38,820 nt of DNA from IMG/VR virus record IMGVR_UViG_2908572912_000003. One strand, given 5' to 3'. Under the pieces are notes generated by a model, which saw nothing but the letters and a program-made list of their open reading frames with translations, made no database searches and was not told the DNA's origin. Source of the DNA: a virus. Lineage: Duplodnaviria; Heunggongvirae; Uroviricota; Caudoviricetes. Positions within the stretch are counted from its first letter, which is position 1. Each line of letters starts with the position of its first letter. Positions 266 through 38,820 of this stretch are shown here, piece by piece. Position numbers and translations under genes: made by a program.

Positions 266-273
<8 letters not shown>

Positions 274-1842: not shown

Positions 1843-1914
1843 TCTGCAATGCGTCGTGTTGTTGTCCGGTGTACGTCACAATTTTCTTAACCTGAAGTGA
1901 CGAGGAGCCGGAAA

Positions 1915-2649: not shown

Positions 2650-3146
2650 TTTACTGCCCGTCGTGTGGACATGTTGCTCACACCCGTCGCGCACATTTCA
2701 TGGACGATGGCACCAAGATAATGATTGCACAGTGCCGGAATATTTATTGCTCTGCGACATTTGAAGCGAGTGAAAGCTTTTTCTCTGACTGTAAAGATTC
2801 AGGAATGGAATACATTTCAGGCAAACAGAGATACCGCGATTCACTGACGTCAGCCTCCGGCAGCATGAAACGCCCGAAAAGAATGCTTGTTACCGGATAT
2901 TGTTGTCGGAGATGTAAAGGCCTTGCACTGTCAAGAACATCGCGGCGTCTGTCTCAGGAAGTCACCGAGCGTTTTTATGTGTGCACGGATCCGGGCTGTG
3001 GTCTGGTGTTTAAAACGCTTCAGACCATCAACCGCTTCATTGTCCGCCCGGTCACGCCGGACGAACTGGCAGAAAGCCTGCATGAAAAACAGGAACTGCC
3101 GCCAGTACGCTTAAAAACACAATCATATTCGCTGCGTCTGGAATGA
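2646..3146 (+). CDS. delta: Late gene activator Delta (tandem Ogr-like zinc-finger domains)
   Basis: 166 aa with two Ogr-type zinc-finger modules (MIYCPSCGH...CRNIYC and YCCRRCKG...YVCTDPGCG). Confidence 0.85.
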   Translation: MIYCPSCGHVAHTRRAHFMDDGTKIMIAQCRNIYCSATFEASESFFSDCKDSGMEYISGKQRYRDSLTSASGSMKRPKRMLVTGYCCRRCKGLALSRTSRRLSQEVTERFYVCTDPGCGLVFKTLQTINRFIVRPVTPDELAESLHEKQELPPVRLKTQSYSLRLE

Positions 3147-3219
3147 GGGCTGCCGGTTAACACCGGCCGTCGCCGCACACCGTATTTTTATTCTTCAGCA
3201 TGATGAGAAAGAGATAACG

Positions 3220-3792
3220 ATGGAAAGCACAGCCTTACAGCAGGCCTTTGACACCTGTCAGAATAACAAAGCAGCATGGCTGCAACGCAAAAATGAGCTG
3301 GCAGCGGCCGAACAGGAATATCTGCGGCTTCTGTCAGGAGAAGGCAGAAACGTCAGTCGCCTGGACGAATTACGCAATATTATCGAAGTCAGAAAATGGC
3401 AGGTGAATCAGGCCGCCGGTCGTTATATTCGTTCGCATGAAGCCGTTCAGCACATCAGCATCCGCGACCGGCTGAATGATTTTATGCAGCAGCACGGCAC
3501 AGCACTGGCGGCGGCACTGGCACCGGAGCTGATGGGCTACAGTGAGCTGACGGCCATTGCCCGAAACTGTGCCATACAGCGTGCCACAGATGCCCTGCGT
3601 GAAGCCCTTCTGTCCTGGCTTGCGAAGGGGGAAAAAATTAATTATTCCGCACAGGATAGCGACATTTTAACGACCATCGGATTCAGGCCTGACGCGGCTT
3701 CGGTGGACGACAGCCGTGAAAAATTCACCCCTGCGCAGAACATGATTTTTTCGCGTAAAAGTGCGCAACTGGCATCACGTCAGTCTGTGTAA
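3220..3792 (+). CDS. psu: Polarity suppression protein Psu (capsid decoration / Rho antagonist)
   Basis: 190 aa, matching the recalled P4 Psu length; sits immediately after delta and before the cos-like site. Confidence 0.8.
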   Translation: MESTALQQAFDTCQNNKAAWLQRKNELAAAEQEYLRLLSGEGRNVSRLDELRNIIEVRKWQVNQAAGRYIRSHEAVQHISIRDRLNDFMQQHGTALAAALAPELMGYSELTAIARNCAIQRATDALREALLSWLAKGEKINYSAQDSDILTTIGFRPDAASVDDSREKFTPAQNMIFSRKSAQLASRQSV

Positions 3793-3828
3793 AATTTCCC
3801 GAAAATCCGCCTGTTTTTACTGAAAAAA

Positions 3829-3853
3829 GCCATGCATCGATAAGGTGCATGGC
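3829..3853 (+). terminator. Possible terminator hairpin after psu
   Basis: GCCATGCA...TGCATGGC inverted repeat followed by TTT; the U-tract is weak. Confidence 0.3.
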
Positions 3854-3956
3854 TTTGCATGCGTTTCCCTGCCTCATTTTCTGCAGACCGCGCCATTCCC
3901 GGCGCGGTCTGAGCGTGTCAGTGCAACTGCATTAAAACCGCCCCGCAAAGCGGGCG

Positions 3957-3975
3957 GGCGTGGCGGGGAGAGCAT
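3957..3975. other. P2/P4-type cohesive end (cos) site, variant
   Basis: GGCGTGGCGGGGAGAGCAT matches the recalled 19-nt P2/P4 cos GGCGAGGCGGGGAAAGCAC at 16 of 19 positions and lies downstream of psu as in P4. Confidence 0.4.
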
Positions 3976-4136
3976 TGCGCGCTGCCTGCAGAGCTAAATT
4001 ATTTTATTCATCCAATTTTAGTGATGGTTGGGACGGGCTGAATTTCGTGAATTTCCGAAAAAGAGTTAAAGTTTTCATCCCAATTAACATAAAACTATAT
4101 TGCGGATGTTTGCTTTAGCCCTTTCTCTCGTAAGAT

Positions 4137-6368: not shown

Positions 6369-6393
6369 TTTTTCGCATTCCTTTTATTGTTTT

Positions 6394-7596
6394 TTAATTA
6401 CTGGCTGATAGTGACTTAACGTAATTCCCCCACCAACTCATTAGCTCTATCCTTTGTTCTAAATAAATTGAACGATTATAAGCTCTACGTACTTCATTTT
6501 TATCTGTGTGCGCTAATGCTGACTCTATGACATCCGCATTCATCCCCGCTTCATTCATCGCTGTACTCGCAATAGACCTTAAACCATGAGCAACAAGCTT
6601 TCCACCATATCCAATTCTCTTCAGCGCAGCATTAGCCGTCTGGCTATTCATTGGTTGCTTTGGGTCATTCCTGCTCGGAAAAACGTGCTCTCGATTGGCA
6701 CTAATAGGTTTCATCACTTCGAGAATCTCTAATGCCTGAGTTGAGAGAGGAACTATGTGCTCACGTTTAGCCTTCATTCGTTCGGCCGGAATCGTCCATA
6801 GCTTTGTTTCGAGATCGATTTCAGCCCACCGAGCACCGGAGGCCTCAGAAGGGCGCACAAGGGTCAGGAGTTGCCATTCGATTAGACAGCGAGTCGGAAC
6901 AGACAGATTTGACATGACTAAAGAACGCATCAGCTTCGGCAATTCTTCTGGCCGCAACGTCGGCATGTTTTGCTTTTTGGGCTTCTCAAAGGCCATGCCA
7001 ACACCGGATGCTGGATTGGCATCAATCAGACCAGTGTTTACGGCATAAATCATGATTTCGTTAATACGCTGCACCAGTCGACGTACAGTCTCAAGCGCCC
7101 CACGTGCTTTTATTGGCTCAAGGGCTTCAACCAAAGTTCGGGCTTTGATTTGCTGAACGGGGATCTCACCGATGGCAGGGAATACATCTTTCTCCAGTGA
7201 ACGCCAAATGTCTTTTGCGTAATCAGGGGTAACGCTTTTGCTTTTGAGATGGAACCAGTTAGCGGCGACCGTTGAAAAAATACTGTCCAGAGCGATTTGC
7301 TGCTGTTCCTCTGCAACTTCGGCCTGAATTTGTGGGTCAATTCCGTTGGCTAACAAGGCAAGGTAATCCGCTCTTAACCCTCGGGCGTCAGCAAGTGAAA
7401 GGGCGGGGAAAGCACCTAGCCCCATCATTGTCCGCTGTTTTGTCGCCGGACGTTGATAACGGAAACGCCAGAGCTTTTTCCCGCTGGTTTTCACTATCAG
7501 GAAAAGGCCATCGCCATCATGCAGCGTTAGATCCTTCTCTAACGCTTTAGCGCGCAGAACTTCGGTGTTGGTCAGGGGGCGTGTTGTCCGTGCCAC
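6394..7596 (-). CDS. int: P4-type tyrosine integrase
   Basis: 400 aa; N-terminal arm-binding region (GLFLIVKTSGKKLWRFRYQ) and C-terminal catalytic region (HGLRSIAST...AHTD...RAYNR); GTG start with AAGGAG upstream; adjacent to the att core. Confidence 0.9.
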   Translation of the reverse strand: MARTTRPLTNTEVLRAKALEKDLTLHDGDGLFLIVKTSGKKLWRFRYQRPATKQRTMMGLGAFPALSLADARGLRADYLALLANGIDPQIQAEVAEEQQQIALDSIFSTVAANWFHLKSKSVTPDYAKDIWRSLEKDVFPAIGEIPVQQIKARTLVEALEPIKARGALETVRRLVQRINEIMIYAVNTGLIDANPASGVGMAFEKPKKQNMPTLRPEELPKLMRSLVMSNLSVPTRCLIEWQLLTLVRPSEASGARWAEIDLETKLWTIPAERMKAKREHIVPLSTQALEILEVMKPISANREHVFPSRNDPKQPMNSQTANAALKRIGYGGKLVAHGLRSIASTAMNEAGMNADVIESALAHTDKNEVRRAYNRSIYLEQRIELMSWWGNYVKSLSASN

Positions 7597-7618
7597 TGTG
7601 GTCGCTCCTTCATGAATT

Positions 7619-7666
7619 GGTATACGCTTTTAGGTATACATCCTACCGTATACCTAAACGTATACC
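7619..7666. promoter_or_regulatory. Cluster of GTATAC-core repeats in the integrase upstream region (possible Int or regulator binding sites)
   Basis: GGTATAC at 7619-7625 and 7633-7639, and CGTATACC at 7647-7654 and 7659-7666, within 70 bp upstream of the int start. Confidence 0.3.
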
Positions 7667-7712
7667 AATAATCACCGGATTTAGCCGGATGTTCTCGGAC
7701 AACGACAGACAC

Positions 7713-7744
7713 AAAAAAGCCCGCAGGGCTTATGCCGTGCGGGC
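7713..7744 (-). terminator. Rho-independent terminator following the tmRNA-like 3' end
   Basis: GCCCGCA...TGCGGGC hairpin (7719-7744) with an A-run on the plus strand (7713-7718), giving a U-tract on the minus strand just downstream of the att core. Confidence 0.5.
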
Positions 7745-7780
7745 TTTCTGTACTTCACTGGACGTATCCGGATCATGATT

Positions 7781-7808
7781 TGGTGGGCTGGCGGGAGTTG
7801 AACCCGCG
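7781..7808 (-). other. Attachment-site core: 3'-terminal 28 nt of a tmRNA (ssrA)-like gene, not a complete RNA gene
   Basis: Minus strand reads CGCGGGTTCAACTCCCGCCAGCCCACCA, nearly identical to the recalled E. coli ssrA 3' end (GCGGGTTCAACTCCCGCCAGCTCCACCA); the sequence 5' of it is AT-rich and not RNA-like. Confidence 0.55.
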
Positions 7809-7937
7809 TTCTATTAATGGTAAATAACTGTAATTTATAGCTTTTATTTGAAGTAGATCACATGCGTATCCTTTGTGGATACTTGAGGTATATGTTATAT
7901 ATAAAACATATATTTACATGAAGTAAATGGATGTTTT

Positions 7938-8561
7938 ATGACAATACAGGAAATAATTCAGCAACGTAATATTCGTAGCTTGTTTCATTTTACACATAGC
8001 GATAATCTAACTTCCATTTTAGATAATGGCCTTATGTCTCGTTCAGAACTTGATAATGAAAATAATGAATATAATTATAATGATGAAGAAAGGATTGATG
8101 GTCATCCAGATGCGATTTGTTTGTCCGTAAGTTACCCTAATGCAAAAATGTTTTATAAATATAGATGTTTAAAGCCTGGGGACTGGGTTATATTAGAAAT
8201 CAATCCATCTGTTCTTTGGGCTAAGGATTGCGCTTTTTATCCTACCAACGCAGCTTCGAATAACGTTCGTTTTATAAATCTTGATTTGATGAAAGGAGCT
8301 GAGGCATTTAGTGCTTTGTTTTCAGAGAATGTTTTTGGGATTCAGAGAGATGTAAACCTTCCAAGTGAGTATACGACGGATGTTCAAGCTGAAATACTGG
8401 TATTTGAAAAAATTCCTCCCTCATATATTATAAGCACTTTTCACCCTAACAAAGAATCTGCTGAACATTTCAAGAGATTATATCCACAGACAATACAGAG
8501 ATCTTATGATAATCTTAATGCTAGAACATTTTATTCTCAGAGGCATTATTATTTAGGATAA
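7938..8561 (+). CDS. DarT-like DNA ADP-ribosyltransferase toxin (DUF4433-like)
   Basis: 207 aa, AT-rich; N-terminal LFHFTHSDNLTSILDNGLMS resembles the recalled DarT NAD-binding motif; candidate catalytic Glu in AEILVFE near residue 150-155; a partner ORF follows 4 bp downstream. Confidence 0.5.
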   Translation: MTIQEIIQQRNIRSLFHFTHSDNLTSILDNGLMSRSELDNENNEYNYNDEERIDGHPDAICLSVSYPNAKMFYKYRCLKPGDWVILEINPSVLWAKDCAFYPTNAASNNVRFINLDLMKGAEAFSALFSENVFGIQRDVNLPSEYTTDVQAEILVFEKIPPSYIISTFHPNKESAEHFKRLYPQTIQRSYDNLNARTFYSQRHYYLG

Positions 8562-8564
8562 GTT

Positions 8565-9254
8565 ATGGCCGTTAGACCTGTTTTCGTCCCTACAAACGCA
8601 GGGAACTTACTATCGATCACGAAGGATGTGGATTTTCCTTGGGCTCCTGGTATGTCTAAAACGCAAAAGCAAAAATCGATCAGGGCGTTACATACAGCAG
8701 CGAATGAGCAGGGATTGAACTCTTTGTTGGAAATTTCTAGTAAATCCGAAGATGCGCTGGGGGTAGCACTTAGTGCATTTAATCTAAGAATAAAGACGAA
8801 AAGACTTGGGAAAGAGTTTACAGTTGAATCTGCATTTCAAGCAAGTAAAGTATTTGAAATGGGAGGACCATATGTCGATATCTTAGATAAAAGCTCGATA
8901 GAAGCAAAAAAAGATATGAGATTAAAGGAATCTGGGGGATTAGTTAACTTCAAATTTTATAATACAATATGGCCCATTGTCCCCAGGACTGCTTTTTATG
9001 ATTGGTTATATTTGAGTGCGCTCAATCAAAACAAAAATCTAGCACTCCATCTATTAAATTTTGATGGATTTACTGATATTGAATTTAATCCAGCGAAATC
9101 TATTAATTGCCAAGCCAGAGCAGCTGCACTTTTTGTCTCTTTAGTAAGACGAAATATGTTAGATGATGTTTTATCTTCAAAGGATGGTTTTTTATCAAAA
9201 TTAGCATCTCATTATGGTGTTGAAAATTATTCTATTCAACATACATTGATATGA
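8565..9254 (+). CDS. Partner of the DarT-like gene; possible NADAR (YbiA-like) domain antitoxin
   Basis: 229 aa with AGGA ribosome-binding site; LSAFNLRIKTKRLGKEFTVESAFQASKVF resembles the YbiA/NADAR segment FSNFAAWPIKVDGKTWPTSEHYFQAQKF; no macrodomain motifs (NAAN/GGGV) found. Confidence 0.4.
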   Translation: MAVRPVFVPTNAGNLLSITKDVDFPWAPGMSKTQKQKSIRALHTAANEQGLNSLLEISSKSEDALGVALSAFNLRIKTKRLGKEFTVESAFQASKVFEMGGPYVDILDKSSIEAKKDMRLKESGGLVNFKFYNTIWPIVPRTAFYDWLYLSALNQNKNLALHLLNFDGFTDIEFNPAKSINCQARAAALFVSLVRRNMLDDVLSSKDGFLSKLASHYGVENYSIQHTLI

Positions 9255-9256
9255 AT

Positions 9257-9280
9257 AATGGCCTGTAAAGGCCATTTTTA
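9257..9280. terminator. Bidirectional terminator between the convergent DarT-partner and integrase genes
   Basis: AATGGCC tgtaaa GGCCATT hairpin flanked by T-runs, filling the 32-bp gap between the two stop codons. Confidence 0.5.
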
Positions 9281-9286
9281 TCTAAA

Positions 9287-14067: not shown

Positions 14068-14127
14068 CATCCGGTGATGCTGCCAACTTACTGATTTAGT
14101 GTATGATGGTGTTTTTGAGGTGCTCCA

Positions 14128-14403
14128 GTGGCTTCTGTTTCTATCAGCTGTCCCTCCTGTTCAGCTACTGACGGGGTGGTGCGTAACGGCAAAAGCACCG
14201 CCGGACATCAGCGCTATCTCTGCTCTCACTGCCGTAAAACATGGCAACTGCAGTTCACTTACACCGCTTCTCAACCCGGTACGCACCAGAAAATCATTGA
14301 TATGGCCATGAATGGCGTTGGATGCCGGGCAACTGCCCGCATTATGGGCGTTGGCCTCAACACGATTTTACGTCACTTAAAAAACTCAGGCCGCAGTCGG
14401 TAA
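14128..14403 (+). CDS. insA: IS1 InsA
   Basis: [43 protein letters not shown]... matches recalled IS1 InsA. Confidence 0.85.
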
Positions 14404-14825
14404 CCTCGCGCATACAGCCGGGCAGTGACGTCATCGTCTGCGCGGAAATGGACGAACAGTGGGGATACGTCGGGGCTAAATCGCGCCAGCGCTGGCTGTT
14501 TTACGCGTATGACAGGCTCCGGAAGACGGTTGTTGCGCACGTATTCGGTGAACGCACTATGGCGACGCTGGGGCGTCTTATGAGCCTGCTGTCACCCTTT
14601 GACGTGGTGATATGGATGACGGATGGCTGGCCGCTGTATGAATCCCGCCTGAAGGGAAAGCTGCACGTAATCAGTAAGCGATATACGCAGCGAATTGAGC
14701 GGCATAACCTGAATCTGAGGCAGCACCTGGCACGGCTGGGACGGAAGTCGCTGTCGTTCTCAAAATCGGTGGAGCTGCATGACAAAGTCATCGGGCATTA
14801 TCTGAACATAAAACACTATCAATAA
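14322..14825 (+). CDS. insB: IS1 InsB reading frame (expressed as the InsAB' transposase by -1 frameshift)
   Basis: ...[36 protein letters not shown]... matches recalled IS1 InsB. Confidence 0.8.
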
Positions 14826-14840
14826 GTTGGAGTCATTACC

Positions 14841-22740: not shown

Positions 22741-24582
22741 ATGGCTGAATTTGAGCTTAAGGCGTTGATCACCGGTGTCGACAGGCTTTCTCCCGCGCTG
22801 TCGAAAATGCAAAAGAAAATCCGGGGATTTAAACGCCAGGCGGAAGAAGCGTCACAGGGTGGGCTGGCGCTTGGTGGCGGACTGGCAGCGGGTCTGACGC
22901 TTTCTCTGAAATCTTATGCCGATCAGGAAAACGCCGCCACCGGGCTGAAAGTCGCCATGATGGATGCGAACGGCGAGGTTGGAAAGAGCTTTCAGGACAT
23001 CAATAAACTGGCTATTGGCCTGGGTAACCAGCTACCCGGTACAACAGCTGATTTTCAGAACATGATGCAGATGCTGGTGCGTCAGGGGATCCCGGCAGAA
23101 AACATTCTTGGCGGTGTGGGTAAAGCGACAGCTTTTCTTGCGGTACAACTGAAAAAAACACCGGAAGCGGCTGCTGAGTTTGCCGCAAAGATGCAGGATG
23201 CTACCGGAACGGCGTCAGAAGACATGATGGGGCTGTTCGACACTATCCAGAAGGCGTTTTATCTGGGCGTTGACGATACCAACATGTTGTCCTTCTTCAC
23301 TAAAACCAGCTCTGTTCTGAAGATGGTGAACAAGGACGGTCTTCAGGCTGCACAGAGCCTTGCCCCCATCAGCGTCATGATGGATCAGATGGGGATGAAC
23401 GGGGAGTCGGCAGGTAATGCCCTGCGAAAAGTTATCCAGTCCGGATTAAGCGTTAAGAAAATCAGGGACGTCAATAAAGTTATGGCCCGTCAGAAACTCG
23501 GGGTACAGCTCGATTTTACTGACGGCAAAGGAAGTTTTGGCGGTCTTGATAACATGTTTAAGCAACTGGCAAAGCTGCGAAAACTTACCGACGTTAAGCG
23601 AACAGGTGTACTTAAGGCAATATTTGGTGATGATGCCGAAACCCTTCAGGTGGTCAATGCGCTGATCGATAAAGGAAAGGATGGTTACGATCAGATCCAG
23701 CAAAAGATGAATAAACAGGCCAGCCTGAATAAACGTGTTCAGGCACAGCTTGGTACGCTGTCCAACCTGTGGGAGGCAATGACGGGGACCGCAACTAACG
23801 GCCTTGCGGCTATTGGCGGCGCATTTTCTGGTGACGCCAAAAATATCACGCAATGGCTGGGGGAGTTGGGGGAAAAATTCACGAAGTTTGCGGATGAAAA
23901 TCCCCGGGTTATTCGCGGCGTCGTCGGGCTTGCTGCCGGTCTTGCGATTCTGAAACTGGGATTGATGGGCGTGGGCAGTGCCATCAGCATTGTCAGCAGG
24001 ATCATGTCGATGACGCCGATTGGCATGATTGCGACGGCGATAGCCCTGGCTGCGGGATTAATTATCACTAACTGGGATGTTGTCGGACCTTATTTCAAGA
24101 AGCTCTGGGAAACCATTGGTCCTTATTTTGAGGCTGGCTGGGAACTCCTTAAGAAAGTTTTTGCCTGGTCGCCGATGGGGATGGTGATCAATAACTGGGG
24201 GCCGGTTGTTAAGTGGTTTCAGGATATGTGGGACAAGCTGAAGCCAATTATTGAGTGGTTTACCGACAGTTCCGGTGACACGGTCGATGCCATTAACTCT
24301 GCGCAGTGGGGCGCGGGTGCTTATGATGCTTATGGGACGGGAATACCGGCACGGGGATACACTCCTTATCCGGCGGTGGATCCGGCTCAGGCAAACAACG
24401 CCTCCGATGCCACAGGCCCGAATCCCTTCATGATTAATAAAGCTTCTGCGCCAAAAGTTGATGGTGAGATCAAGGTATCTTTTGTGAATTCGCCTCCGGG
24501 TATGCGGGTTATGGAAACGCGATCCAGCGGTATCGACGTGAATCACGACGTTGGCTACACCCGATTTGGTATGGGGGGCTGA
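22741..24582 (+). CDS. Tail tape measure protein
   Basis: 613 aa; helical N-terminal part, hydrophobic Gly/Ala-rich central segment (GVVGLAAGLAILKLGLMGVGSAISIVS...). Confidence 0.85.
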   Translation: MAEFELKALITGVDRLSPALSKMQKKIRGFKRQAEEASQGGLALGGGLAAGLTLSLKSYADQENAATGLKVAMMDANGEVGKSFQDINKLAIGLGNQLPGTTADFQNMMQMLVRQGIPAENILGGVGKATAFLAVQLKKTPEAAAEFAAKMQDATGTASEDMMGLFDTIQKAFYLGVDDTNMLSFFTKTSSVLKMVNKDGLQAAQSLAPISVMMDQMGMNGESAGNALRKVIQSGLSVKKIRDVNKVMARQKLGVQLDFTDGKGSFGGLDNMFKQLAKLRKLTDVKRTGVLKAIFGDDAETLQVVNALIDKGKDGYDQIQQKMNKQASLNKRVQAQLGTLSNLWEAMTGTATNGLAAIGGAFSGDAKNITQWLGELGEKFTKFADENPRVIRGVVGLAAGLAILKLGLMGVGSAISIVSRIMSMTPIGMIATAIALAAGLIITNWDVVGPYFKKLWETIGPYFEAGWELLKKVFAWSPMGMVINNWGPVVKWFQDMWDKLKPIIEWFTDSSGDTVDAINSAQWGAGAYDAYGTGIPARGYTPYPAVDPAQANNASDATGPNPFMINKASAPKVDGEIKVSFVNSPPGMRVMETRSSGIDVNHDVGYTRFGMGG

Positions 24583-24586
24583 TACC

Positions 24587-25925
24587 CATAAGCGCTAACT
24601 TAAGGGTTGAACCATCTGAAGAATGCGACGCCTCGGTGCCTCGTTAAGACGATGCCTCGCGTTCTTCAATTGCGTTTTGTAGGCTGTCAGGGATACTGTC
24701 CCACGAATGGCCACCTGTAAGCTCCAGATGACCATTTTTGTTATTCTCCACAACGAGTTAGTTCTTCTTTTCGGATCCGGCACTTCTGGGGGGGAAATCC
24801 AGCGATGGCTGGATTATGTCGTCAATTAAAAATGCGGCGAGTAGATTAGCAAATATCCACGCTTTCGCGAGTTCAGGTTCCTTTGCACGCAAAGCATCCA
24901 GGTGCAGCAAACTTTTGAGCCGCTTAAAAGCCAGTTCAATTTGCCATCGCAGACGGTAACAATCAGCCACTTGCTCTGCTGAATATTCATCTTCCGGTAA
25001 TGATGTTAGCAATAGCACATGGCCCGCTGCTTCCAGCGTTTCCGCCTGAACTACTCGTCCTTTTCGACGATTCTCGCTGAGCAGTCGGGTTTTACTGATT
25101 AATGCTTTTTCGGGAGGAAGTGATACGGCAATGAGACGTGCCGGAAAGGGAGCTCCGGCTTTTTTATTACCTGAATTGCCTATCATTACAGTGGTTTCAC
25201 CGTTCTTACCGCAATCCAGCCCGCGCAGAAAACCCATCATGTCAAAGCGCATTCCTTCTGCAGTTAACCAGCGCAATCCTCGCCAGTGAACCCGGACGAT
25301 ATAATCAGCTTCTCCAAAAGCAAGTGAGCGGATACATTCGGGACGCGAACCGAATCCCCGGTCAGCAATGCGTATCTCGTCTGCCGTTTGCGCAAATCGG
25401 TCCAGCCGTTCAGCGTCTCTGCTGTCGGTTAGCTCAAAATCAGTGAACTGACAGGTATGAGGATCATATCCCATATGTAGTCGCCATTCAGCGCTGCCGC
25501 CCCCGGGCGCACTGATTGCTGTTCCATCGACAAGACGCAATCTCTTTCCGCTTGTACAACCCGTAACTGCGGCGCGTACAGCAAGTGTTTGTGCGGCAAG
25601 TATGCCAAACCAGTCGGCGGCATTCCGCAGCCGCTTCAGGAGAGCCACGTCAGATAATGTTGCAACGTCATGGAGCTGAGCCCATGCAGTGACTTCACGT
25701 AATGACATCCCCCCGGGGCCGTAAGCCAGCCCCAGACGTAGCAGAGTTGCAGCATCACGAATTTCGCGGCGGCGGGTTAGAGCCCCGGCATTACGTGCCG
25801 AAGTATCCAGTTCTTCGGGCTTACCAATATGGGCCAGAATTGCTGACCAGTTATCGTGAGAGTAATTCATCGGCACGTTAAATCATATCAGGCGTAATAC
25901 CACAACCCTTAAGTTAGCGCTTATG
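24587..25925 (-). mobile_element. IS186 (IS4 family) insertion
   Basis: Terminal inverted repeats CATAAGCGCTAACTTAAGGGTTG (24587-) and CAACCCTTAAGTTAGCGCTTATG (-25925); direct repeats GGCTGATACC(C) on both flanks; 1339 bp. Confidence 0.85.
24758..25876 (-). CDS. insL: IS186 transposase (InsL-like, IS4 family)
   Basis: 372 aa containing MNYSHDNWSAILAHIGKPEELDTSARNAG..., matching recalled IS186 transposase. Confidence 0.85.
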   Translation of the reverse strand: MPMNYSHDNWSAILAHIGKPEELDTSARNAGALTRRREIRDAATLLRLGLAYGPGGMSLREVTAWAQLHDVATLSDVALLKRLRNAADWFGILAAQTLAVRAAVTGCTSGKRLRLVDGTAISAPGGGSAEWRLHMGYDPHTCQFTDFELTDSRDAERLDRFAQTADEIRIADRGFGSRPECIRSLAFGEADYIVRVHWRGLRWLTAEGMRFDMMGFLRGLDCGKNGETTVMIGNSGNKKAGAPFPARLIAVSLPPEKALISKTRLLSENRRKGRVVQAETLEAAGHVLLLTSLPEDEYSAEQVADCYRLRWQIELAFKRLKSLLHLDALRAKEPELAKAWIFANLLAAFLIDDIIQPSLDFPPRSAGSEKKN

Positions 25926-26012
25926 GGCTGATACCCCGCTTAAACACGGGTTTTGTCGTTTAGCAGGTTCTTGGTAGGATTAGTCCGATACTTTAATGAT
26001 GGGAATAGGGAT

Positions 26013-26690
26013 ATGAAAGTCTTAACAATTTATTCAGTTGTCGGCATGGCTCTTTTACTCGGGGGATGTACCTCTCCGAAGTACAATTATTTACCAAAAA
26101 CAGAAAATTATAGTGAACCTCCTGTAGGAAGCATTAATACAGCTTATGTCGGTGATTCAATGATTAAGCAGGGGGTGTCACAGAGGTTTGAAGGTCTGAA
26201 GGTTAATGCTCCTGCGAGAATTTCCTGGGCGTATACGATCACTCCGGGGATGCTGAAAAAGGTTGGTGAGGATAACAAGGCTGATTATTACTTTCTCACA
26301 AACGGTGCTGATTCAGCCAATGTGGAAAAGGCAGCCCTTGCCGATATGTGGCAGGGCATCATGGTAGAAAAGAAAAAGAATGCCTTATGTGTAATAACAG
26401 TTTTCGGTGTTACCAACTGTGAAACTAACATGCCTATCGAAAAGGTTACTCTGAATATCAGTGGTGATTCATCTTTCCAGCAAGCTCTGCTTTACAACGG
26501 AAGGGTCGGAAACAAAATCAACATTGGATATCGTGAATTTTCATCGAATACAGCACGCCCGGCCTTCAACAACGATGTTGAGTATGATCTCGCGGAGTCT
26601 AAAACAATTGGCTATAAAGGGGCTAAATTCGAAGTACTTGATGCGAGTAACCAAAGCATAAGGTATCGGGTAATAAGTAACTTTAGATAA
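26013..26690 (+). CDS. Lipoprotein (phage accessory gene)
   Basis: 225 aa; signal peptide with lipobox (MKVLTIYSVVGMALLLGGC); AGGGA ribosome-binding site; its own terminator follows. Confidence 0.65.
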   Translation: MKVLTIYSVVGMALLLGGCTSPKYNYLPKTENYSEPPVGSINTAYVGDSMIKQGVSQRFEGLKVNAPARISWAYTITPGMLKKVGEDNKADYYFLTNGADSANVEKAALADMWQGIMVEKKKNALCVITVFGVTNCETNMPIEKVTLNISGDSSFQQALLYNGRVGNKINIGYREFSSNTARPAFNNDVEYDLAESKTIGYKGAKFEVLDASNQSIRYRVISNFR

Positions 26691-26704
26691 GCGATAATTT
26701 AATG

Positions 26705-26728
26705 AAACCCGCTTCGGCGGGTTTTTTT
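26705..26728 (+). terminator. Rho-independent terminator after the lipoprotein gene
   Basis: AAACCCGC ttcg GCGGGTTT hairpin followed by a T-run. Confidence 0.6.
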
Positions 26729-26743
26729 ATATCCGGAGTTTAT

Positions 26744-28072
26744 ATGACGTGGAAAGACAGACTTCAGGACGCGTCATTTCGCGGCGTGCCGTTTAAGGTT
26801 GAAGAAGAAAGTGCGGGAACCGGTCGCCGTGTGGAAACACACGAATACCCGAACCGCGACAAACCCTATACCGAAGACCTGGGGAAAATCACTTTCCGCC
26901 CGTCCATCACGGCTTATGTGGTGGGAGATGACTGCTTTGACCAGCGTGATCGCCTGATTGAAGCGCTGAATAAACCCGGTCCCGGCACGCTTGTCCACCC
27001 GACATACGGTGAGCTGAAAGTCTGTGTTGACGGGGAAGTTCGGGTCAGCACATCGAAGAGTGAAGGGCGTATTGTCCGCTTTGACCTGAAGTTTGTCGAA
27101 GCGGGAGAACTCTCTTACCCCACATCAGGCGCGGCGACGGCGCAGACGCTGATGTCATCCTGTTCTGCGCTGGATGACTGCATCAGTGACAGCTTCAGTG
27201 GTTTCAGTATCGATGGCGTGGCGGATTTCGTACAGAACGACGTTATTGGTAATGCCAGCACAATGCTGGGGTATGTTTCTGATGCGATGAAAGTGGTGGA
27301 TTCTGCCGTATCGGATGCCGCCAGGCTGTTGCAGGGGGATATCTCGGTACTTCTGCCGCCGCCATCGTCAGGAAAAAATTTCGTTGAGCAGGTGCAGAAA
27401 ATGTGGCGTACCGGGAAGCGCCTTTATGGTAACGCCAGCGACCTGGTCACCATGATCAAAACGCTTTCTGGTGTCAGCCTCGGCAGCGATCTGCAACCGC
27501 GCGGCGTCTGGAAAACGGACAGTAAAACCACCGTCACGGCGACGCAGCAGCGTAACGTGGTTGCCAGCACCCTTCGTACGACCGCAATCAGCGAAGCGGC
27601 GTATGCCATCACCCGATTGCCTGCGCCAACAATTTCCGCGGTGATGCAGAATGCCGCAGTGGGGCAGTCAACAACACCCGCGCAGAGCACCGGCTGGCCT
27701 TCCGTCATGCATCCGGCACTGAACAATGCACCGGCGGTGAAAAACACGGTTGACCTGCCGACGTGGGAAGAACTGACTGACATTCGCGACACACTGAATA
27801 CGGCAATTGATAAGGAGTTGTCCCGTACAACCAGTGATGCGCTGTTTCTGGCGCTGCGCCGGGTGAAAGCAGATCTGAATGCGGATATCAACACGCGCCT
27901 TGAACAGTCTGCACGGATCATTCAGCGCACGCCGGATGAGGTCTTACCCGCGCTGGTGCTGGCGGCGACCTGGTTTGATAACGCGGCGCGTGACGCGGAC
28001 ATTATCCGGCGTAATGCCATTACGCATCCCGGCTTTGTGCCGGTGATCCCTCTGAAGGTGCCAGTGCTATGA
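26744..28072 (+). CDS. DNA circulation protein (Mu gp43-like), N-terminal domain family
   Basis: 442 aa; ATG with GGAG upstream; follows the tape measure gene as in Mu-like tail modules. Confidence 0.65.
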   Translation: MTWKDRLQDASFRGVPFKVEEESAGTGRRVETHEYPNRDKPYTEDLGKITFRPSITAYVVGDDCFDQRDRLIEALNKPGPGTLVHPTYGELKVCVDGEVRVSTSKSEGRIVRFDLKFVEAGELSYPTSGAATAQTLMSSCSALDDCISDSFSGFSIDGVADFVQNDVIGNASTMLGYVSDAMKVVDSAVSDAARLLQGDISVLLPPPSSGKNFVEQVQKMWRTGKRLYGNASDLVTMIKTLSGVSLGSDLQPRGVWKTDSKTTVTATQQRNVVASTLRTTAISEAAYAITRLPAPTISAVMQNAAVGQSTTPAQSTGWPSVMHPALNNAPAVKNTVDLPTWEELTDIRDTLNTAIDKELSRTTSDALFLALRRVKADLNADINTRLEQSARIIQRTPDEVLPALVLAATWFDNAARDADIIRRNAITHPGFVPVIPLKVPVL

Positions 28073-33347: not shown

Positions 33348-34415
33348 TTAATGAAATTTATCTCGGATGAATTGTTGCGATGGTTTTTCAATGAATATAT
33401 ATGACATATAGCTAATTGCCATTAATGTAAGCATGAATAAAATGAATACCTTGGGGCTGTAAAAAAGATCGCGTCCATAGCCAATCTTGTCAGCTAAATA
33501 AACAACAATGATTTGCAAAGGAAAATGTAAAAGATAAGATGAATAACTGATATCGCCCAACCATTCAATTTTTTTCCCAAAATCGTTTCGTATTGCGCTA
33601 ATTGATACAAGGAAAAATATTATGGAGGTAAATCCGAATAAGATAATTGAGAATATATCTGCTACTTGCAGGGTAAATATAACTCCCCATGAGATCAATA
33701 GAAAAACACAAGCAAAAATAAAAAATAACTTTGCGCTAATATTTTTTATGGCCGCAATCGTAATTTTATAAGTCAGACCACCAATAAAGAAAGAGAATGC
33801 GCCGATCATTATGGGATTGTTAATTTTGAAAAAGTAGTACGATAATGCAACTATTAAAATTGATATGAATGTTGTTTTTGATGTGAACTTGCATAATATA
33901 AAAAATATCATGTACATAAGTACTTCAATCGACACGGACCATGTCGGGGCGTTGAAGGACCAACCTCGCTCAAATCCCCATGATTGAATCATCAATAAAT
34001 TCAGAATGGCATGGTAAATGTCATTCATAGGATAAACAAAAAAATAATTATGACTTTTAAAGAAAATAATTTGTAATATTGCCACGACAGCAAATGTAAA
34101 TATATAAAGTGGATATAATCTACTGACACGGTTAACTATAAAAGTTTTTGCTGAGGTTTTATTGCTGTGTATATTGTCAGCGTATAGATAAAAAAATATG
34201 AATCCAGAAATCATAAAAAATAATTCGACAGCATATAAACCGTAATGATAAAAGACGGAAAAAAATTCATAAAAAGGTTGGCGGTTTATGATTATGTCAG
34301 ATGCAGCATTCTTTTTCATAAAAAAATGTTGCCAATGCCATAACACAACGGAAAGTGCGGCAAATCCTCTCAGAACATCCAGGGTATATATTCTCTTCCC
34401 AAAAACATTCGTCAC
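33348..34415 (-). CDS. Acyltransferase family 3 membrane protein (probable O-antigen/LPS acetyltransferase)
   Basis: 355 aa, polytopic membrane protein with N-terminal DVLRGFAALSVVLWH motif; strongly AT-rich; GTG start with GAGG upstream; located after the tail fibre genes. Confidence 0.8.
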   Translation of the reverse strand: MTNVFGKRIYTLDVLRGFAALSVVLWHWQHFFMKKNAASDIIINRQPFYEFFSVFYHYGLYAVELFFMISGFIFFYLYADNIHSNKTSAKTFIVNRVSRLYPLYIFTFAVVAILQIIFFKSHNYFFVYPMNDIYHAILNLLMIQSWGFERGWSFNAPTWSVSIEVLMYMIFFILCKFTSKTTFISILIVALSYYFFKINNPIMIGAFSFFIGGLTYKITIAAIKNISAKLFFIFACVFLLISWGVIFTLQVADIFSIILFGFTSIIFFLVSISAIRNDFGKKIEWLGDISYSSYLLHFPLQIIVVYLADKIGYGRDLFYSPKVFILFMLTLMAISYMSYIFIEKPSQQFIRDKFH

Positions 34416-34886
34416 AACGAACCTCTTTTAATAAAGTCAAGTGATAATGAAAGATAAATATTGTAAACGAAAAAACACTGGACTGGAACATATATCTCTG
34501 CCTGTAATTTAACCAGGATAATTTTACTAACGCAGTCATAATTCGTTCATGTATACCAGATGAAAGTACATGTTCTATGAAATAGGGTTTTGCCTGGAGT
34601 TTGAAGGTTTTTAACGATTATACCTGTTTAATCGACTCCCCATGTTTTTTGACATTATCCACCGCACACGATACTGGATGCCAGGTAAACTGATTTGCTG
34701 GCATAAAGTCACTGAGAATTTTTTACCAACAATATCTTGCCACATCTTTTCCCGCACAGTTTCGGCAATAGAATCAGCGGGCAGCGGACATCAATATTCA
34801 CCAGACATTGATCTGCCGCACTATCTGACCGGTGTCCTGCTGAGAATACTAATTTCTTTTTTTTGCAAGTGCTGTCCAATCATGAT

Positions 34887-34916
34887 TGGGGGGGGCCGGC
34901 GGAGTTGAAACCGCAG
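34887..34916 (-). other. Degenerate tmRNA 3'-end-like sequence (possible older att remnant)
   Basis: Minus strand CTGCGGTTTCAACTCCGCCGGCCCCCCCA shares the GGCGG(G)AGTTGAA(C)CCGC core with the att core at 7781-7808. Confidence 0.3.
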
Positions 34917-34966
34917 ACACGTTGTATGCAATAACGTGCTGCGGTTTAATCTTATCAATTGAATAC

Positions 34967-35836
<870 letters not shown>

Positions 35837-36143
35837 CTAAGCCTTTGAATTTACAGAGTACAAAAAAGATACTTTTCCTCATAATGTGAGCTAATTTTAT
35901 GTTTCGTTTGATGATTGGACCGGTCTCGAAAACCGTAGGCACGTAGTATGCGTTAATTTATGAACAAACTACTTGTCTGCTGTTTTTCTGTCATTAGTCG
36001 TATATAGAATGATTCTCTATGCCTAACAAAGCATCACCAGTGCTAGATTACGTTGTAGTCACTGTTTAAATATCCAGATAAAACATTTCCTTCTGGGTTG
36101 AATGAGTGATAAAGTTTCACCCATTAGACCCCTTGGAGGAATT

Positions 36144-37577
36144 ATGTCTGAATTTGAAGTGTTGGCACAGCATCTGCTGAAGGAAGCCGAGGCGGAAGAA
36201 AAGCTGCGACAGGAAAATGATAAAAAGCTTATCGAGAAAGTGCTGGAAATCTATGATCAGAAGTATGTGGCTGAATTACTGAGAAAAGTCGGAAAAAATG
36301 AGTGGAGCCGTGAAACCATTAACCGCTGGATTAATGGCAAGTGTTTACCAAAATCGTTGACTTCAGTAGAAGAGTCTCTTCTGCGTAAGATGCTACCAGA
36401 ACCACCTGCAAACCATCCGGAATATGCTTTCCGCTTCATTGACTTATTTGCTGGAATTGGAGGGATACGGAAAGGTTTTGAGGCCATTGGAGGCCAGTGT
36501 GTTTTTACCAGTGAATGGAATAAAGATGCTGTGCGTACATACAAGGCCAACTGGTTTAACGATGAACAGGTGCATAAATTCAATCTCGATATTCGGGAAG
36601 TCACGCTGAGTGATAAAACCGATGTATTGGAAACGGATGCTTATGCATATATTGATGAGCATGTGCCGGATCATGATGTGCTTCTTGCGGGGTTCCCGTG
36701 CCAGCCATTTAGCCTTGCTGGTGTTAGTAAGAAAAACTCACTTGGTCGTGCGCATGGTTTTGAATGTGAAGCACAAGGAACACTTTTTTTTGACGTGGCA
36801 CGTATTATACGAGCAAAAAAACCGGCAATTTTTGTGCTGGAAAATGTCAAAAATCTGAAGAGCCATGATAAGGGTAAAACTTTCAAAGTCATTATGGAGA
36901 CCCTTGACGAGCTGGGCTACGAAGTTGCCGATGCTGCAGAAATGGGAAAAAACGATCCAAAGATTATCGATGGGAAGCATTTTTTGCCTCAGCATCGTGA
37001 ACGCATTGTTCTGGTCGGATTTAGACGAGATCTGAATATTCACAAGGGGTTTACCTTGCGTGATATCAGTCGTTTTTATCCGGAACACCGCCCATCATTT
37101 GGTGAATTGCTGGAGCCTGTAGTCGACAGTAAATATATACTTACGCCAAAACTATGGGAGTACCTTTATAACTACGCCAAAAAGCATGCAGCCAAGGGGA
37201 ATGGTTTTGGCTTTGGGTTGGTCAATCCTGAGAATAAGGAAAGCATTGCACGCACACTTTCTGCCAGATATCACAAAGACGGATCAGAAATTCTTATTGA
37301 TCGTGGTTGGGATATGGCAACGGGAGAGGCTGACTTTATGAATGAGAGTAACCAGGCTCGTCGACCACGCAGGCTGACTCCCCGAGAGTGCGCACGCCTT
37401 ATGGGGTTTGAAAAACCTGGAGGGAAACCATTCCGTATTCCGGTTTCAGATACTCAGTCATATCGGCAGTTCGGTAACTCCGTTGTGGTGCCAGTATTTG
37501 AAGCCGTTGCCAGACTTCTGGAACCCTATATCCTCAAAGCTGTTTCTGCTGATGCTGGTAAGACTGGGCAGCCTTGA
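36144..37577 (+). CDS. ecoRIIM: DNA cytosine-5 methyltransferase, M.EcoRII/Dcm type (CCWGG)
   Basis: Motif [14 protein letters not shown] catalytic motif ([10 protein letters not shown]), ENV motif (FVLENVKNL); closely resembles recalled Dcm/M.EcoRII; ATG at 36144 with GGAGGA upstream (the track ORF starts 42 nt earlier). Confidence 0.9.
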
Positions 37578-37611
37578 GAACACCTCCCGGCCTTTTAAGC
37601 CGGGAGTCAGC

Positions 37612-38820
37612 CTATGATAGTTCAGTGTAAAGTTCTATCAGCTCAGTAATGAATGCTCCGAGCGTTATTAATTCTTCTCTAACTGCTTCTGGGTATTTTT
37701 TATGTAAAGTTGATGGTACAACGAGTCTGACACCCGCATCTTTCATTTCTCGGTATTGTGCTGAAGAAACACCTTCTTGCAGCGTAAATAAATGTACCTG
37801 ATGGATTTTATCTGCTTCATTCAGTATCTGACGCCAGCGATCTTTGCAGGTGGTCTTTACTGCCAGCATACGTAAGTTTTCTACAGGAAATTCAGCGTTA
37901 TGATATGCCTCTGCTGAAGGAAACAGGAAATCTGGTTTTTTATTACCTTCAGTAACTGCCTGAGTGGAGAAATGCCGTAGTCCGTGCTCGATAAAAAGCT
38001 TCTCTAGGTGAAGTTCAAGTGATTTACCTGCCCTTGATTTACGTCGATTACTGACAGAGTTGGCTAATGCAATAAACTCATCTACAGAATCGAACCCTTT
38101 CTTAATAATATCAAGAACATGTAATTCCTCGACGAGTAGAAAAATATCATACTCGACACGCCGACGGTCAATCAGTTGCTCATCTGGATCCTTGGAGTTT
38201 TTAGCATAATGGCCAGCAGCATATTGAATAATTTCGTTTCCAGAAGGAAAACGCTTCTTCCAGTCTTCAGGAATAACATATTTATGATTTACTGGAGTTT
38301 GCTGAAGAGACAATCCGCCCAAAATTTGTCCGGCAGGGCCGGAAATTAGGGTTCCAGGTATGATTTCGCCAATAGCAGACTCGATGATATCCTCTTCATC
38401 GGGATTGACGCAGACCCATATATCTACCTCGGAACAGTCAGTGTTCTGTTCGTTTAACCTGAAAGCAAGAATTGTGAGGGCTCCTGTATTTTCAGGGTTC
38501 TGTAATGGACTTCCTCTCCCCCAGCGCGTAATTCTTTTTTCGTTTCGGGTCTTACCAAAATAACGGTTGTTGTAATAAATTGCGCGTGCTTGGGTATCAG
38601 GGCAATCATGGGATGATACATGCGCAGTAAGGAAGACTGAAGGGTTCAGTTCGCGAGTATGATTGATAGATGGAAAAAGCTTTTCAACGATATTTGAGGG
38701 GATATAAAGTCCGACCTGATGGCCACCTGTTGCGCCTGTGTCGTTTGCAGAAAGGCGTTTGATGTAGATAAAGTAATTCCCGCTTGCGATATCAAGCAGC
38801 CAGTTATGAAAAACCGACAT
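37612..38820 (-). CDS. ecoRIIR: Type II restriction endonuclease EcoRII
   Basis: 402 aa starting MSVFHNWLLDIASGNYFIYIKRLSANDTGATGGHQVGLYIPS..., near-identical over long stretches to recalled R.EcoRII; convergent with the methyltransferase; the start codon is the last three bases of the window. Confidence 0.9.
   Translation of the reverse strand: MSVFHNWLLDIASGNYFIYIKRLSANDTGATGGHQVGLYIPSNIVEKLFPSINHTRELNPSVFLTAHVSSHDCPDTQARAIYYNNRYFGKTRNEKRITRWGRGSPLQNPENTGALTILAFRLNEQNTDCSEVDIWVCVNPDEEDIIESAIGEIIPGTLISGPAGQILGGLSLQQTPVNHKYVIPEDWKKRFPSGNEIIQYAAGHYAKNSKDPDEQLIDRRRVEYDIFLLVEELHVLDIIKKGFDSVDEFIALANSVSNRRKSRAGKSLELHLEKLFIEHGLRHFSTQAVTEGNKKPDFLFPSAEAYHNAEFPVENLRMLAVKTTCKDRWRQILNEADKIHQVHLFTLQEGVSSAQYREMKDAGVRLVVPSTLHKKYPEAVREELITLGAFITELIELYTELS

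What the first reader, a model, noticed from the sequence alone, without database searches (positions are those of the whole stretch)
24576..25936. IS186 inserted exactly at the tape measure stop codon, upstream of a lipoprotein gene
IS186 sits with a 10-11 bp duplication (GGCTGATACC(C)) that includes the TGA stop of the tape measure gene. The tape measure protein is therefore intact, but the late operon is interrupted between it and the downstream lipoprotein and baseplate genes, probably decoupling or re-driving their expression from IS-borne promoters.
Basis: seen in the sequence. Interest (0 to 1): 0.4.

Follow-up and report, generated by a model that had tools for sequence, protein, structure and literature searches.

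The report
IS186 in its preferred target site
An ordinary, intact copy of the E. coli jumping gene IS186 sits in its textbook preferred target sequence just after the tape-measure gene of an already dead SfV-like prophage; the same spot has been hit repeatedly in other strains, and nothing suggests that the element drives the genes downstream.

Summary
A complete IS186 (IS186B/IS421 type) lies at 24587-25925, with perfect 23-nt terminal inverted repeats, an intact 370-aa transposase on the minus strand, and a 10-bp target duplication GGCTGATACC (12 nt identical if ambiguous end bases are counted). The left copy holds the TGA of the 613-aa tape-measure gene, so that protein is unchanged.

Removing the IS restores GGGGGGCTGATACCCC, the published IS186 target GGGG(N6/N7)CCCC and the only such site in the window.

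Among complete E. coli genomes, 22 carry the empty site and 6 carry IS186 at exactly this position. Five have the window's orientation and one the opposite. They lie on flank haplotypes 1.3-2.2% apart. One occupied group differs by 1 SNP in 10 kb from an empty allele. This is a recurrent hot spot with at least three independent events. About 857 genomes have a related allele; the one read lacks the CCCC half, and none carries the IS there.

The "IS-borne promoter" idea finds no support. No promoter-like site reads out of the IS. In this window an IS1-linked deletion has removed the Q antiterminator, lysis genes and most terminase genes.

The downstream lipoprotein is a mobile accessory gene of unknown function, absent from phage SfV. 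This is a known phenomenon of low interest.

The parts
22741..24582 (+). Tail tape-measure gene, 613 aa, intact; its stop TGA is at 24580-24582
   Evidence: ORF list. Pfam PhageMin_Tail, E 1e-25. Translation ends ...RFGMGG*. Same length and same end in IS-free alleles.
24577..24586 (.). Left copy of the target-site duplication GGCTGATACC; it contains the tape-measure stop codon
   Evidence: Repeat family D1; sequence read directly.
24587..25925 (-). IS186 (IS186B/IS421 type), 1339-bp core; the transposase reads against the tail operon
   Evidence: 100% identical to annotated IS186B/IS421 copies. Identical to the copies at the same site in six other genomes.
24587..24609 (.). Terminal inverted repeat at the 3' end of the transposase gene
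   Evidence: Inverted repeat I1, 100% complementary.
24758..25870 (-). insL transposase gene, 370 aa, uninterrupted
   Evidence: Pfam DDE_Tnp_1, E 2e-26. Translation has no internal stop.
25140..25169 (+). Terminator-like hairpin plus T-run inside IS186, on the strand that a tail-operon transcript would copy
   Evidence: Consensus scan. RNA fold -13.2 kcal/mol, z -2.2. Function not tested.
25903..25925 (.). Terminal inverted repeat at the 5' (promoter) end of the transposase gene; this end faces the lipoprotein gene
   Evidence: Inverted repeat I1.
25926..25935 (.). Right copy of the target-site duplication GGCTGATACC
   Evidence: Repeat family D1.
25953..25980 (+). Weak candidate native promoter of the lipoprotein gene (TTGTCG, 16 nt, TGgTAGGAT); it lies downstream of the IS and is untouched by it
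   Evidence: Read from the sequence. It scores 8 of 12, below the scan threshold. Both hexamers are conserved in the 90%-identity allele. This is an inference only.
26013..26690 (+). Accessory lipoprotein gene, 225 aa, family phrog_1353, function unknown
   Evidence: Lipobox LLGGC. phrog_1353, E 1e-98. No Pfam or PADLOC match. Absent from SfV at this position.
26704..26732 (+). Hairpin plus T-run between the lipoprotein gene and the DNA-circularization gene; SfV has a counterpart directly after its tape-measure gene
   Evidence: (-14.9 kcal/mol, z -4.4).
26744..28072 (+). DNA-circularization (Mu N-like) gene, the first of the baseplate genes
   Evidence: Pfam DNA_circ_N, E 8e-34. Annotated the same way in related genomes.
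14073..14840 (+). IS1 without a target duplication, flanked by deletions that removed the prophage's early-right, Q, lysis and terminase regions
   Evidence: Comparison with the MSI001 prophage. IS1 transposase hit. IS1 ends and unlike flanks.

Best explanation
This is a routine, target-directed transposition of IS186 into a natural hot spot.

The last codons of the tape-measure gene (GGG GGC TGA) plus the first bases of an adjoining accessory cassette spell GGGGGGCTGATACCCC. That is a perfect GGGG-N6-CCCC, the sequence IS186 prefers. The transposase made a staggered cut of 10-11 bp across the site. Repair duplicated GGCTGATACC(C), so one copy with the stop codon stays attached to the tape-measure gene, which is unchanged.

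The same site has been hit independently several times in E. coli prophages of this family, in both orientations.

In this window the insertion is most likely neutral, because the prophage had already lost its late-gene activator, lysis genes and terminase genes. In more complete relatives the IS puts 1.35 kb, including a terminator-like hairpin, between the tape-measure gene and the downstream tail genes. Q-modified RNA polymerase would be expected to read through it.

Shown here: the identity, ends, duplication and target motif of the IS, the recurrence of the insertion, the intact tape-measure gene and the defective prophage. Inferred only: neutrality, read-through and the absence of outward promoter activity.
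For: - Anatomy and identity.
- Reconstructed empty site GGGGGGCTGATACCCC. It is found uninterrupted in 22 complete E. coli genomes at 98.5-98.9% identity.
- Published target preference 5'-GGGG(N6/N7)CCCC (PMC6925257). An 11-bp G/C-rich duplication is reported for IS186B (PMC12102499).
- No other intact GGGG-N6/7-CCCC exists in the 38.8-kb window; chance expectation is 0.34 and 0.45.
- Recurrence, same orientation: IS186 sits at the identical position with the identical duplication in 5 genomes.
- Recurrence, opposite orientation: 1 genome, GCUET01.
- Flank haplotypes of IS-bearing alleles differ by 125-214 sites in about 9.9 kb, while the IS copies show 0 differences.
- The AST262/WP8/10035776-3 alleles differ from the empty PRO_A-1551 allele by 1-3 sites in 10 kb. 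They are nested in an otherwise IS-free clade and sit at argW, whereas the window-like prophages sit elsewhere.
- HCM-21C-2 and GCUET01 differ by 3 sites in 10 kb but carry the IS in opposite orientations.
- Natural negative control: the roughly 857 genomes with a 90%-identity allele include none with IS186 at this site. The one read has GGGGGGCTAATAGCCAGC, which lacks the CCCC half.
- Parallel IS186 hits at fixed sites, in both orientations, are documented experimentally (PMC3045373; PMC12107188).
- Defective prophage.
Against: - Prophage tail modules recombine freely. Some of the IS-bearing alleles (window, MSI001, HCM-21C-2), which share the nearest left-flank variants at -109 and -124, could descend from one insertion followed by flank exchange.
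- The zero divergence of the IS copies is weak evidence on its own, because most IS186 copies in E. coli are at least 99% identical anyway.
- The orientation change in GCUET01 could in principle be an in-place inversion between the element's own 23-nt inverted repeats rather than a new insertion.
- The absence of an outward promoter rests on a consensus scan and a limited literature search, not on transcript data.
- Only one of the roughly 857 non-consensus alleles was read base by base.
Confidence: 0.85

Rival explanations
1. There was one ancient insertion. The IS-bearing segment then spread among related prophages by homologous recombination, and the empty alleles either never received it or lost it by precise excision. 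On this view the site is not a hot spot.
For: All forward-orientation copies have the same duplication and an identical IS. Window, MSI001 and HCM-21C-2 share the nearest left-flank variants and lie in a similar chromosomal neighbourhood.
Against: - The opposite-orientation copy lies on a haplotype only 3 SNPs per 10 kb from a forward one.
- The AST262 group is nested within an IS-free clade, 1 SNP per 10 kb from an empty allele, and at a different attachment site.
- No flank haplotype is specific to IS-bearing alleles. Identical tracts around the IS are only 130-170 bp between several IS-bearing pairs.
- The site is a perfect match to the known target consensus, and the one non-consensus allele that was read is empty, as are all the others of that group.
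Confidence: 0.08
2. The insertion is functional and selected. On this view IS186 uncouples the lipoprotein and baseplate genes from the late operon, or drives them from a promoter carried by the IS, and that is why it recurs.
For: The site is occupied in 6 of 28 complete genomes that carry the consensus allele. The forward orientation predominates. A terminator-like hairpin on the + strand inside the IS could be polar.
Against: - No promoter-like site reads out of the IS toward the lipoprotein gene.
- The transposase end that faces the lipoprotein points inward.
- Counting likely independent events gives about 4 forward to 1 reverse, which is not significant.
- Several IS-bearing prophages are already crippled in other ways, consistent with neutral decay: a truncated Q gene in MSI001, an internal stop in the sheath gene in the AST262 group, and the IS1-linked deletion in the window.
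- Target preference alone explains the recurrence.
- I found no report of an outward IS186 promoter.
Confidence: 0.06
3. It is an assembly artefact, or the IS ends were misassigned so that the tape-measure frame is in fact broken.
For: IS copies are a common source of misassembly in draft genomes.
Against: Both junctions are clean and carry the expected duplication. The identical structure appears in six independently sequenced complete genomes. The tape-measure ORF has the same length and end as in empty alleles.
Confidence: 0.01

Closest known systems
IS186 insertion at the lon promoter hot spot of E. coli (SaiSree, Reddy and Gowrishankar 2001, as cited in PMC3045373 and PMC6925257)
   Same: The element is the same. 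The target is the same kind of G-run, 6-7 nt, C-run sequence, with a G/C-rich duplication of 10-11 bp. Independent hits recur at one exact position and occur in both orientations.
   Different: The lon insertions destroy a promoter and give a selectable phenotype. Here the site lies in the 3'-flanking bases of a prophage tail gene, no coding sequence is broken, and no phenotype is known. The evidence for recurrence here is comparative, not experimental.
Recurrent IS186 insertions in laboratory evolution: serV and ygcE-queE (PMC12107188), the repF gene of an IncQ plasmid (PMC6925257), and the oriV-ori2 spacer of pBACpAK (PMC12102499)
   Same: The same site is struck in parallel populations, which those authors explain by target preference.
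   Different: Those events were seen to arise in the laboratory. The events here are natural alleles in sequenced isolates.
Shigella/E. coli temperate phages SfV, SfI and SfII (HK97-type head, Mu-type contractile tail, lambdoid early genes, O-antigen modification cargo)
   Same: The window's portal-to-tail-fibre gene order matches that of SfV-like prophages. The last 300 nt of the tape-measure gene are about 94% identical to SfV, and the hairpin and start of the DNA-circularization gene are 91% identical over 202 nt.
   Different: In SfV the tape-measure gene is followed directly by the hairpin and the DNA-circularization gene. The window's family has an extra insert of about 780 bp carrying the lipoprotein gene, and that insert also creates the IS186 target. 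SfV ends ...RFGR* and has no GGGG-N6-CCCC there.

Membership tests
IS186 (IS4 family insertion sequence) | Nucleotide identity to reference copies, with a length of about 1338 bp | tested here: met
   The 1339-bp core is 100% identical to copies annotated IS186B/IS421 in many E. coli genomes. The repeat spacing of 1349 equals the IS length plus the duplication.
IS186 (IS4 family insertion sequence) | Perfect terminal inverted repeats of 23 bp | tested here: met
   CATAAGCGCTAACTTAAGGGTTG at both ends, 100% complementary.
IS186 (IS4 family insertion sequence) | A single DDE transposase gene (InsL, about 370 aa) | tested here: met
   An uninterrupted 370-aa ORF with Pfam DDE_Tnp_1, E 2e-26.
IS186 (IS4 family insertion sequence) | A G/C-rich target duplication of about 10-11 bp | tested here: met
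   GGCTGATACC, 10 bp (11-12 bp if ambiguous end bases are counted). An 11-bp duplication is reported in PMC12102499.
IS186 (IS4 family insertion sequence) | Insertion into the preferred target 5'-GGGG(N6/N7)CCCC | tested here: met
   The empty site is GGGG-CTGATA-CCCC. The consensus is as quoted in PMC6925257. It is the only such motif in the window.
IS186 insertion hot spot | Independent insertions at the same nucleotide position | tested here: met
   Both orientations occur on near-identical haplotypes. An IS-bearing subclade is nested in an IS-free clade, 1 SNP per 10 kb from an empty allele. This is comparative evidence only.
IS186 insertion hot spot | Raised insertion frequency measured experimentally | not testable with these tools
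   This needs a transposition trap assay with the cloned site.
IS that activates a neighbouring gene through an outward or hybrid promoter | A promoter at the IS end that reads into the neighbouring gene | tested here: not met
   No sigma-70-like site on the + strand in the IS or across the right junction. No supporting report was found. A consensus scan is weak evidence and transcript mapping was not possible.
SfV-like temperate phage (prophage) | HK97-type portal/protease/capsid genes followed by Mu-type sheath, tube, tape-measure, DNA-circularization and baseplate genes | tested here: met
   One search shows the window collinear with related prophages whose genes are annotated this way. There is a portal_HK97 hit and about 94% DNA identity to SfV in the tape-measure 3' end.
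SfV-like temperate phage (prophage) | A complete, inducible genome with repressor, replication, Q, lysis and terminase genes | tested here: not met
   These regions are replaced by an IS1 with flanking deletions.
Moron (accessory gene cassette in a phage late operon) | Absent at the same position in the closest phages and found in unrelated contexts elsewhere | tested here: met
   Absent from SfV, SfI and SfII. Homologues lie in a Geobacter island, on a Photobacterium chromosome and in a Klebsiella siphovirus prophage.
Moron (accessory gene cassette in a phage late operon) | Its own promoter and terminator | tested here: inconclusive
   Only a weak promoter-like site, 8 of 12 with a TGn extension. 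The downstream hairpin is also present in SfV, which lacks the cassette.

The most novel reading that the evidence does not exclude
The most novel reading not excluded is that the recurrent IS186 insertions are selected rather than merely target-driven. On this view, occupying the site (in either orientation) changes the expression of the widespread, uncharacterized lipoprotein gene or silences the downstream baseplate genes. It would then act as a repeatable route to taming SfV-like prophages.
Probability: 0.06. Interest if true: 0.45.

Novelty: already known. Interest (0 to 1): 0.15.

Why it matters
It matters little beyond annotation. It gives a clean natural example of IS186's GGGG-N6-CCCC preference, and relatives provide a built-in control: the one diverged allele that was read lacks the CCCC half, and none of the roughly 857 genomes in that group carries the IS at this site. 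The site could serve as a strain-typing marker. It also warns against reading regulatory meaning into IS positions that target preference already explains.

The more open question lies next door. The lipoprotein is very widespread and strongly conserved, yet it has no family annotation and no recognizable fold relative among solved or viral structures.

Tried and rejected
- The primary paper on the IS186 consensus (PMC95536) is not held, so the consensus is cited second-hand from PMC6925257.
- Exact-junction scans of the species-representative genomes and of the metagenome contigs found nothing. That is unsurprising: only one genome per species is held, and IS junctions rarely assemble in metagenomes.
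- Literature searches for an outward IS186 promoter or for IS186-driven gene activation gave nothing relevant.
- I considered using the zero divergence of the IS copies as proof of recent insertion. I gave it little weight because nearly all IS186 copies are at least 99% identical.
- The private SNPs at +22 (shared by HCM-21C-2 and GCUET01) and +25 (MSI001) just right of the IS could be taken as recombination breakpoints. I treated them as uninformative, because each is confined to one flank lineage.
Full report
**1. What is in the sequence**

A 23-nt sequence, CATAAGCGCTAACTTAAGGGTTG, starts at 24587, and its exact reverse complement ends at 25925. The two arms are 100% complementary and occur only once each in the window.

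Outside them lies a direct repeat. GGGCTGATACCC occurs at 24576-24587 and again at 25925-25936, with a start-to-start spacing of 1349. The first G and last C of that repeat could belong either to the element or to the target. The duplication is therefore 10 bp (GGCTGATACC, element 1339 bp) or 11 bp (element 1338 bp, the length given for IS186B in PMC12102499).

The 1339-bp core is 100% identical to copies annotated as IS186B/IS421-family elements in many complete E. coli genomes; 2,220 of 5,426 genomes carry the element. Its only long ORF runs on the minus strand from ATG 25870 to 24758. It encodes an uninterrupted 370-aa DDE transposase.

The tape-measure ORF (22741-24582, 613 aa, Pfam PhageMin_Tail) ends ...RFGMGG followed by TGA at 24580-24582. 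That stop is inside the left repeat copy, and the IS begins 4 nt later. The tape-measure protein is therefore untouched. IS-free alleles have a gene of the same length with the same end.

**2. Why it is exactly there**

Removing the IS and one repeat copy gives ...TTTGGTATGGGGGGCTGATACCCCGCTTAAAC. The core, GGGG-CTGATA-CCCC, is a perfect match to the preferred IS186 target 5'-GGGG(N6/N7)CCCC, as quoted in PMC6925257 from SaiSree et al. 2001 and others. The primary paper is not in the library.

No other intact GGGG-N6-CCCC or GGGG-N7-CCCC exists anywhere in the 38.8-kb window; chance expectation is 0.34 and 0.45. The element therefore occupies the one consensus site available.

**3. Empty and occupied alleles elsewhere**

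The reconstructed empty site is found uninterrupted in 22 complete E. coli genomes at 98.5-98.9% identity. A query spanning flank-IS-flank finds 5 genomes with the IS at the same place and in the same orientation: MSI001, AST262, WP8-S18-ESBL-07, 10035776-3 and HCM-21C-2. All five have the same duplication and an IS identical in all 1339 bases.

A synthetic query with the IS reversed finds one genome, GCUET01. It carries the IS at the same nucleotide with the same duplication but in the opposite orientation.

About 857 further genomes carry a roughly 90%-identical allele. The one I read has GGGGGGCTAATAGCCAGC, which lacks the CCCC half and uses TAA as its stop. None of these genomes shows IS186 at the site in either orientation. 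This serves as a natural negative control, although only one of these alleles was read base by base.

Strain 90-9281 has TGA changed to TGG. This lengthens the tape-measure protein by four residues but keeps the motif.

**4. One event or several?**

I aligned 5 kb on each side of the site from the window and 14 genomes.

- *Group A (AST262, WP8, 10035776-3).* These are identical or nearly identical to one another. They differ from the empty PRO_A-1551 allele by only 1-3 sites in 10 kb, and they are nested in a clade that is otherwise IS-free (M7424, T-HYM1, C4, GN06156, AST217). They also share a private stop codon in the sheath gene. Their prophage sits at the argW tRNA gene, whereas the HCM-21C-2, MSI001 and window prophages lie elsewhere. 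This is a recent gain within that clade.
- *HCM-21C-2 and GCUET01.* They differ by 3 sites in 10 kb yet carry the IS in opposite orientations. The same argument was used experimentally at the lon promoter to show spontaneous new insertion (PMC3045373).
- *The window and MSI001.* They lie on two further haplotypes, 125-214 differences from one another and from the rest in about 9.9 kb (1.3-2.2%).

No flank haplotype is specific to IS-bearing alleles. Identical tracts around the IS are only 130-170 bp between several IS-bearing pairs.

I conclude there were at least three independent events, and probably five. Two reservations remain. The window, MSI001 and HCM-21C-2 share the nearest left-flank variants, so part of that group could stem from one insertion followed by flank recombination. 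In addition, the zero divergence of the IS copies is weak evidence, because IS186 copies are nearly identical everywhere.

**5. The surroundings**

The related prophages have lambdoid early genes with a Q antiterminator, an HK97-type head and a Mu-type contractile tail. Most of them also carry O-antigen-modifying cargo: gtr genes in M7424 and the AST262 group, an acyltransferase in MSI001. This is the architecture of phage SfV. SfV, SfI and SfII match the last 300 nt of the tape-measure gene at about 94%.

In SfV the tape-measure gene ends ...RFGR*. It is followed at once by a hairpin with a T-run and then the DNA-circularization gene. The window's family has about 780 extra bases between those points. 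These bases carry the lipoprotein gene (26013-26690), and their left edge creates the GGGG-N6-CCCC site.

The lipoprotein belongs to phrog_1353, a family of unknown function. It has no Pfam or PADLOC match. More than 1,000 homologues exist, still about 50% identical in Vibrio, Photobacterium and Geobacter. They occur in unrelated settings: beside an integrase in a Geobacter island, on a Photobacterium chromosome with a divergently oriented neighbour, and among accessory genes of a Klebsiella siphovirus prophage. The gene is therefore mobile cargo, not a tail part.

**6. Consequences for expression**

The transposase reads against the tail operon, and its 5' end faces the lipoprotein gene. A sigma-70 consensus scan of 24300-26900 finds no promoter-like site on the + strand within the IS or across its right junction. 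I found no paper describing an outward IS186 promoter.

The only promoter-like element upstream of the lipoprotein gene is a weak TTGTCG, 16 nt, TGgTAGGAT at 25953-25980. It lies downstream of the IS, is present in empty alleles too, and is conserved in the 90% allele. It falls below the scan threshold and is only a suggestion.

On the + strand the IS carries a terminator-like hairpin with a U-run at 25140-25169 (-13.2 kcal/mol). This could be polar on ordinary transcription. In intact relatives, late transcription is expected to depend on the Q antiterminator. From established knowledge of lambdoid phages, Q makes RNA polymerase resistant to such terminators. The conserved native hairpin at 26704-26725 (-14.9 kcal/mol), which SfV tolerates at the same junction, points the same way. 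These are inferences, not results.

In the window itself the question is moot. An IS1 at 14073-14840, without a target duplication, replaces everything between an early-left gene (ECs1072 family) and the last part of the large terminase gene. Repressor, replication genes, Q, lysis genes and the small terminase gene are all gone. Other IS-bearing relatives are damaged as well: MSI001 has a truncated Q gene and the AST262 group has a stop codon in the sheath gene. This pattern fits neutral decay.

**7. Comparison with what is known, and verdict**

Every defining feature of IS186 that can be tested in silico is met: identity, length, inverted repeats, transposase, duplication and target motif. 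The behaviour matches the lon-promoter hot spot and the recurrent IS186 sites seen in laboratory evolution (PMC3045373, PMC12107188, PMC6925257, PMC12102499).

What is specific here is only the location. The site is created at the seam between a tape-measure gene and an accessory lipoprotein cassette, and the evidence for recurrence comes from natural alleles.

The claim of an intact tape-measure protein is correct. The idea that IS-borne promoters re-drive the downstream genes is unsupported. The finding is an ordinary, already understood phenomenon, so I score interest at 0.15. The most novel reading still open is that the recurrent insertions are selected because they alter lipoprotein or baseplate expression; I give that about 6%.

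Noticed in passing
window 26013-26690: The 225-aa lipoprotein (phrog_1353) has more than 1,000 homologues that are still about 50% identical across Gamma- and Deltaproteobacteria, with 42 invariant alignment columns. It has no Pfam or PADLOC match, and a confident all-beta model finds no fold relative in the PDB or among viral predicted structures. It travels as cargo in unrelated prophages and islands.
   Followed up: partly
window 25936-26770, compared with loci L001-L010: The lipoprotein protein is 100% identical (WP_000866660.1) in every genome of this 98-99%-identity prophage group that was examined, although the flanking tail genes differ by 1-2%. Only 4 variable nucleotide sites occur in about 830 bp, against dozens per kb on the left. 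This suggests recent spread of the cassette or strong constraint.
   Followed up: partly
window 14073-14840: An IS1 (768 bp) has no target duplication and has deletions on both sides. It joins an early-left phage gene directly to the 3' end of the large terminase gene, which makes the prophage defective. MSI001 has an IS1 in its Q gene, matched at about 99% identity.
   Followed up: partly
window 3220-3792 and 6394-7596: A P4-type polarity-suppression protein (Psu, Pfam E 1e-88) and a P4-type integrase indicate a P4-like satellite next to the SfV-like prophage. Psu inhibits Rho, so if it were expressed it could relieve Rho-dependent polarity of IS insertions. That link is speculative.
   Followed up: no
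window 7938-9254: A DarT1 ssDNA ADP-ribosyltransferase with its NADAR antitoxin (a DarTG1-type toxin-antitoxin/defence pair) lies between the two integrase genes.
   Followed up: no
window 33348-38820: Prophage-end cargo: an Acyl_transf_3 family acyltransferase, here in place of the gtr genes seen in relatives; a LEM-3-like GIY-YIG protein; and a Dcm methylase with an EcoRII-type restriction endonuclease.
   Followed up: no
L010 (strain 90-9281), site equivalent to window 24580-24582: The tape-measure stop TGA is mutated to TGG. The protein is extended by four residues, and the IS186 target motif is kept.
   Followed up: yes
window 26704-26732 and L012 (SfV) about 3320-3350: A strong hairpin with a T-run lies between the tape-measure region and the DNA-circularization gene in both the window and the functional phage SfV. 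An intrinsic-terminator-like structure in the middle of the tail operon is therefore a native, tolerated feature.
   Followed up: partly
window 4137-6368 (minus strand): A 743-aa ORF in the P4-like region has no Pfam or NCBIfam match.
   Followed up: no
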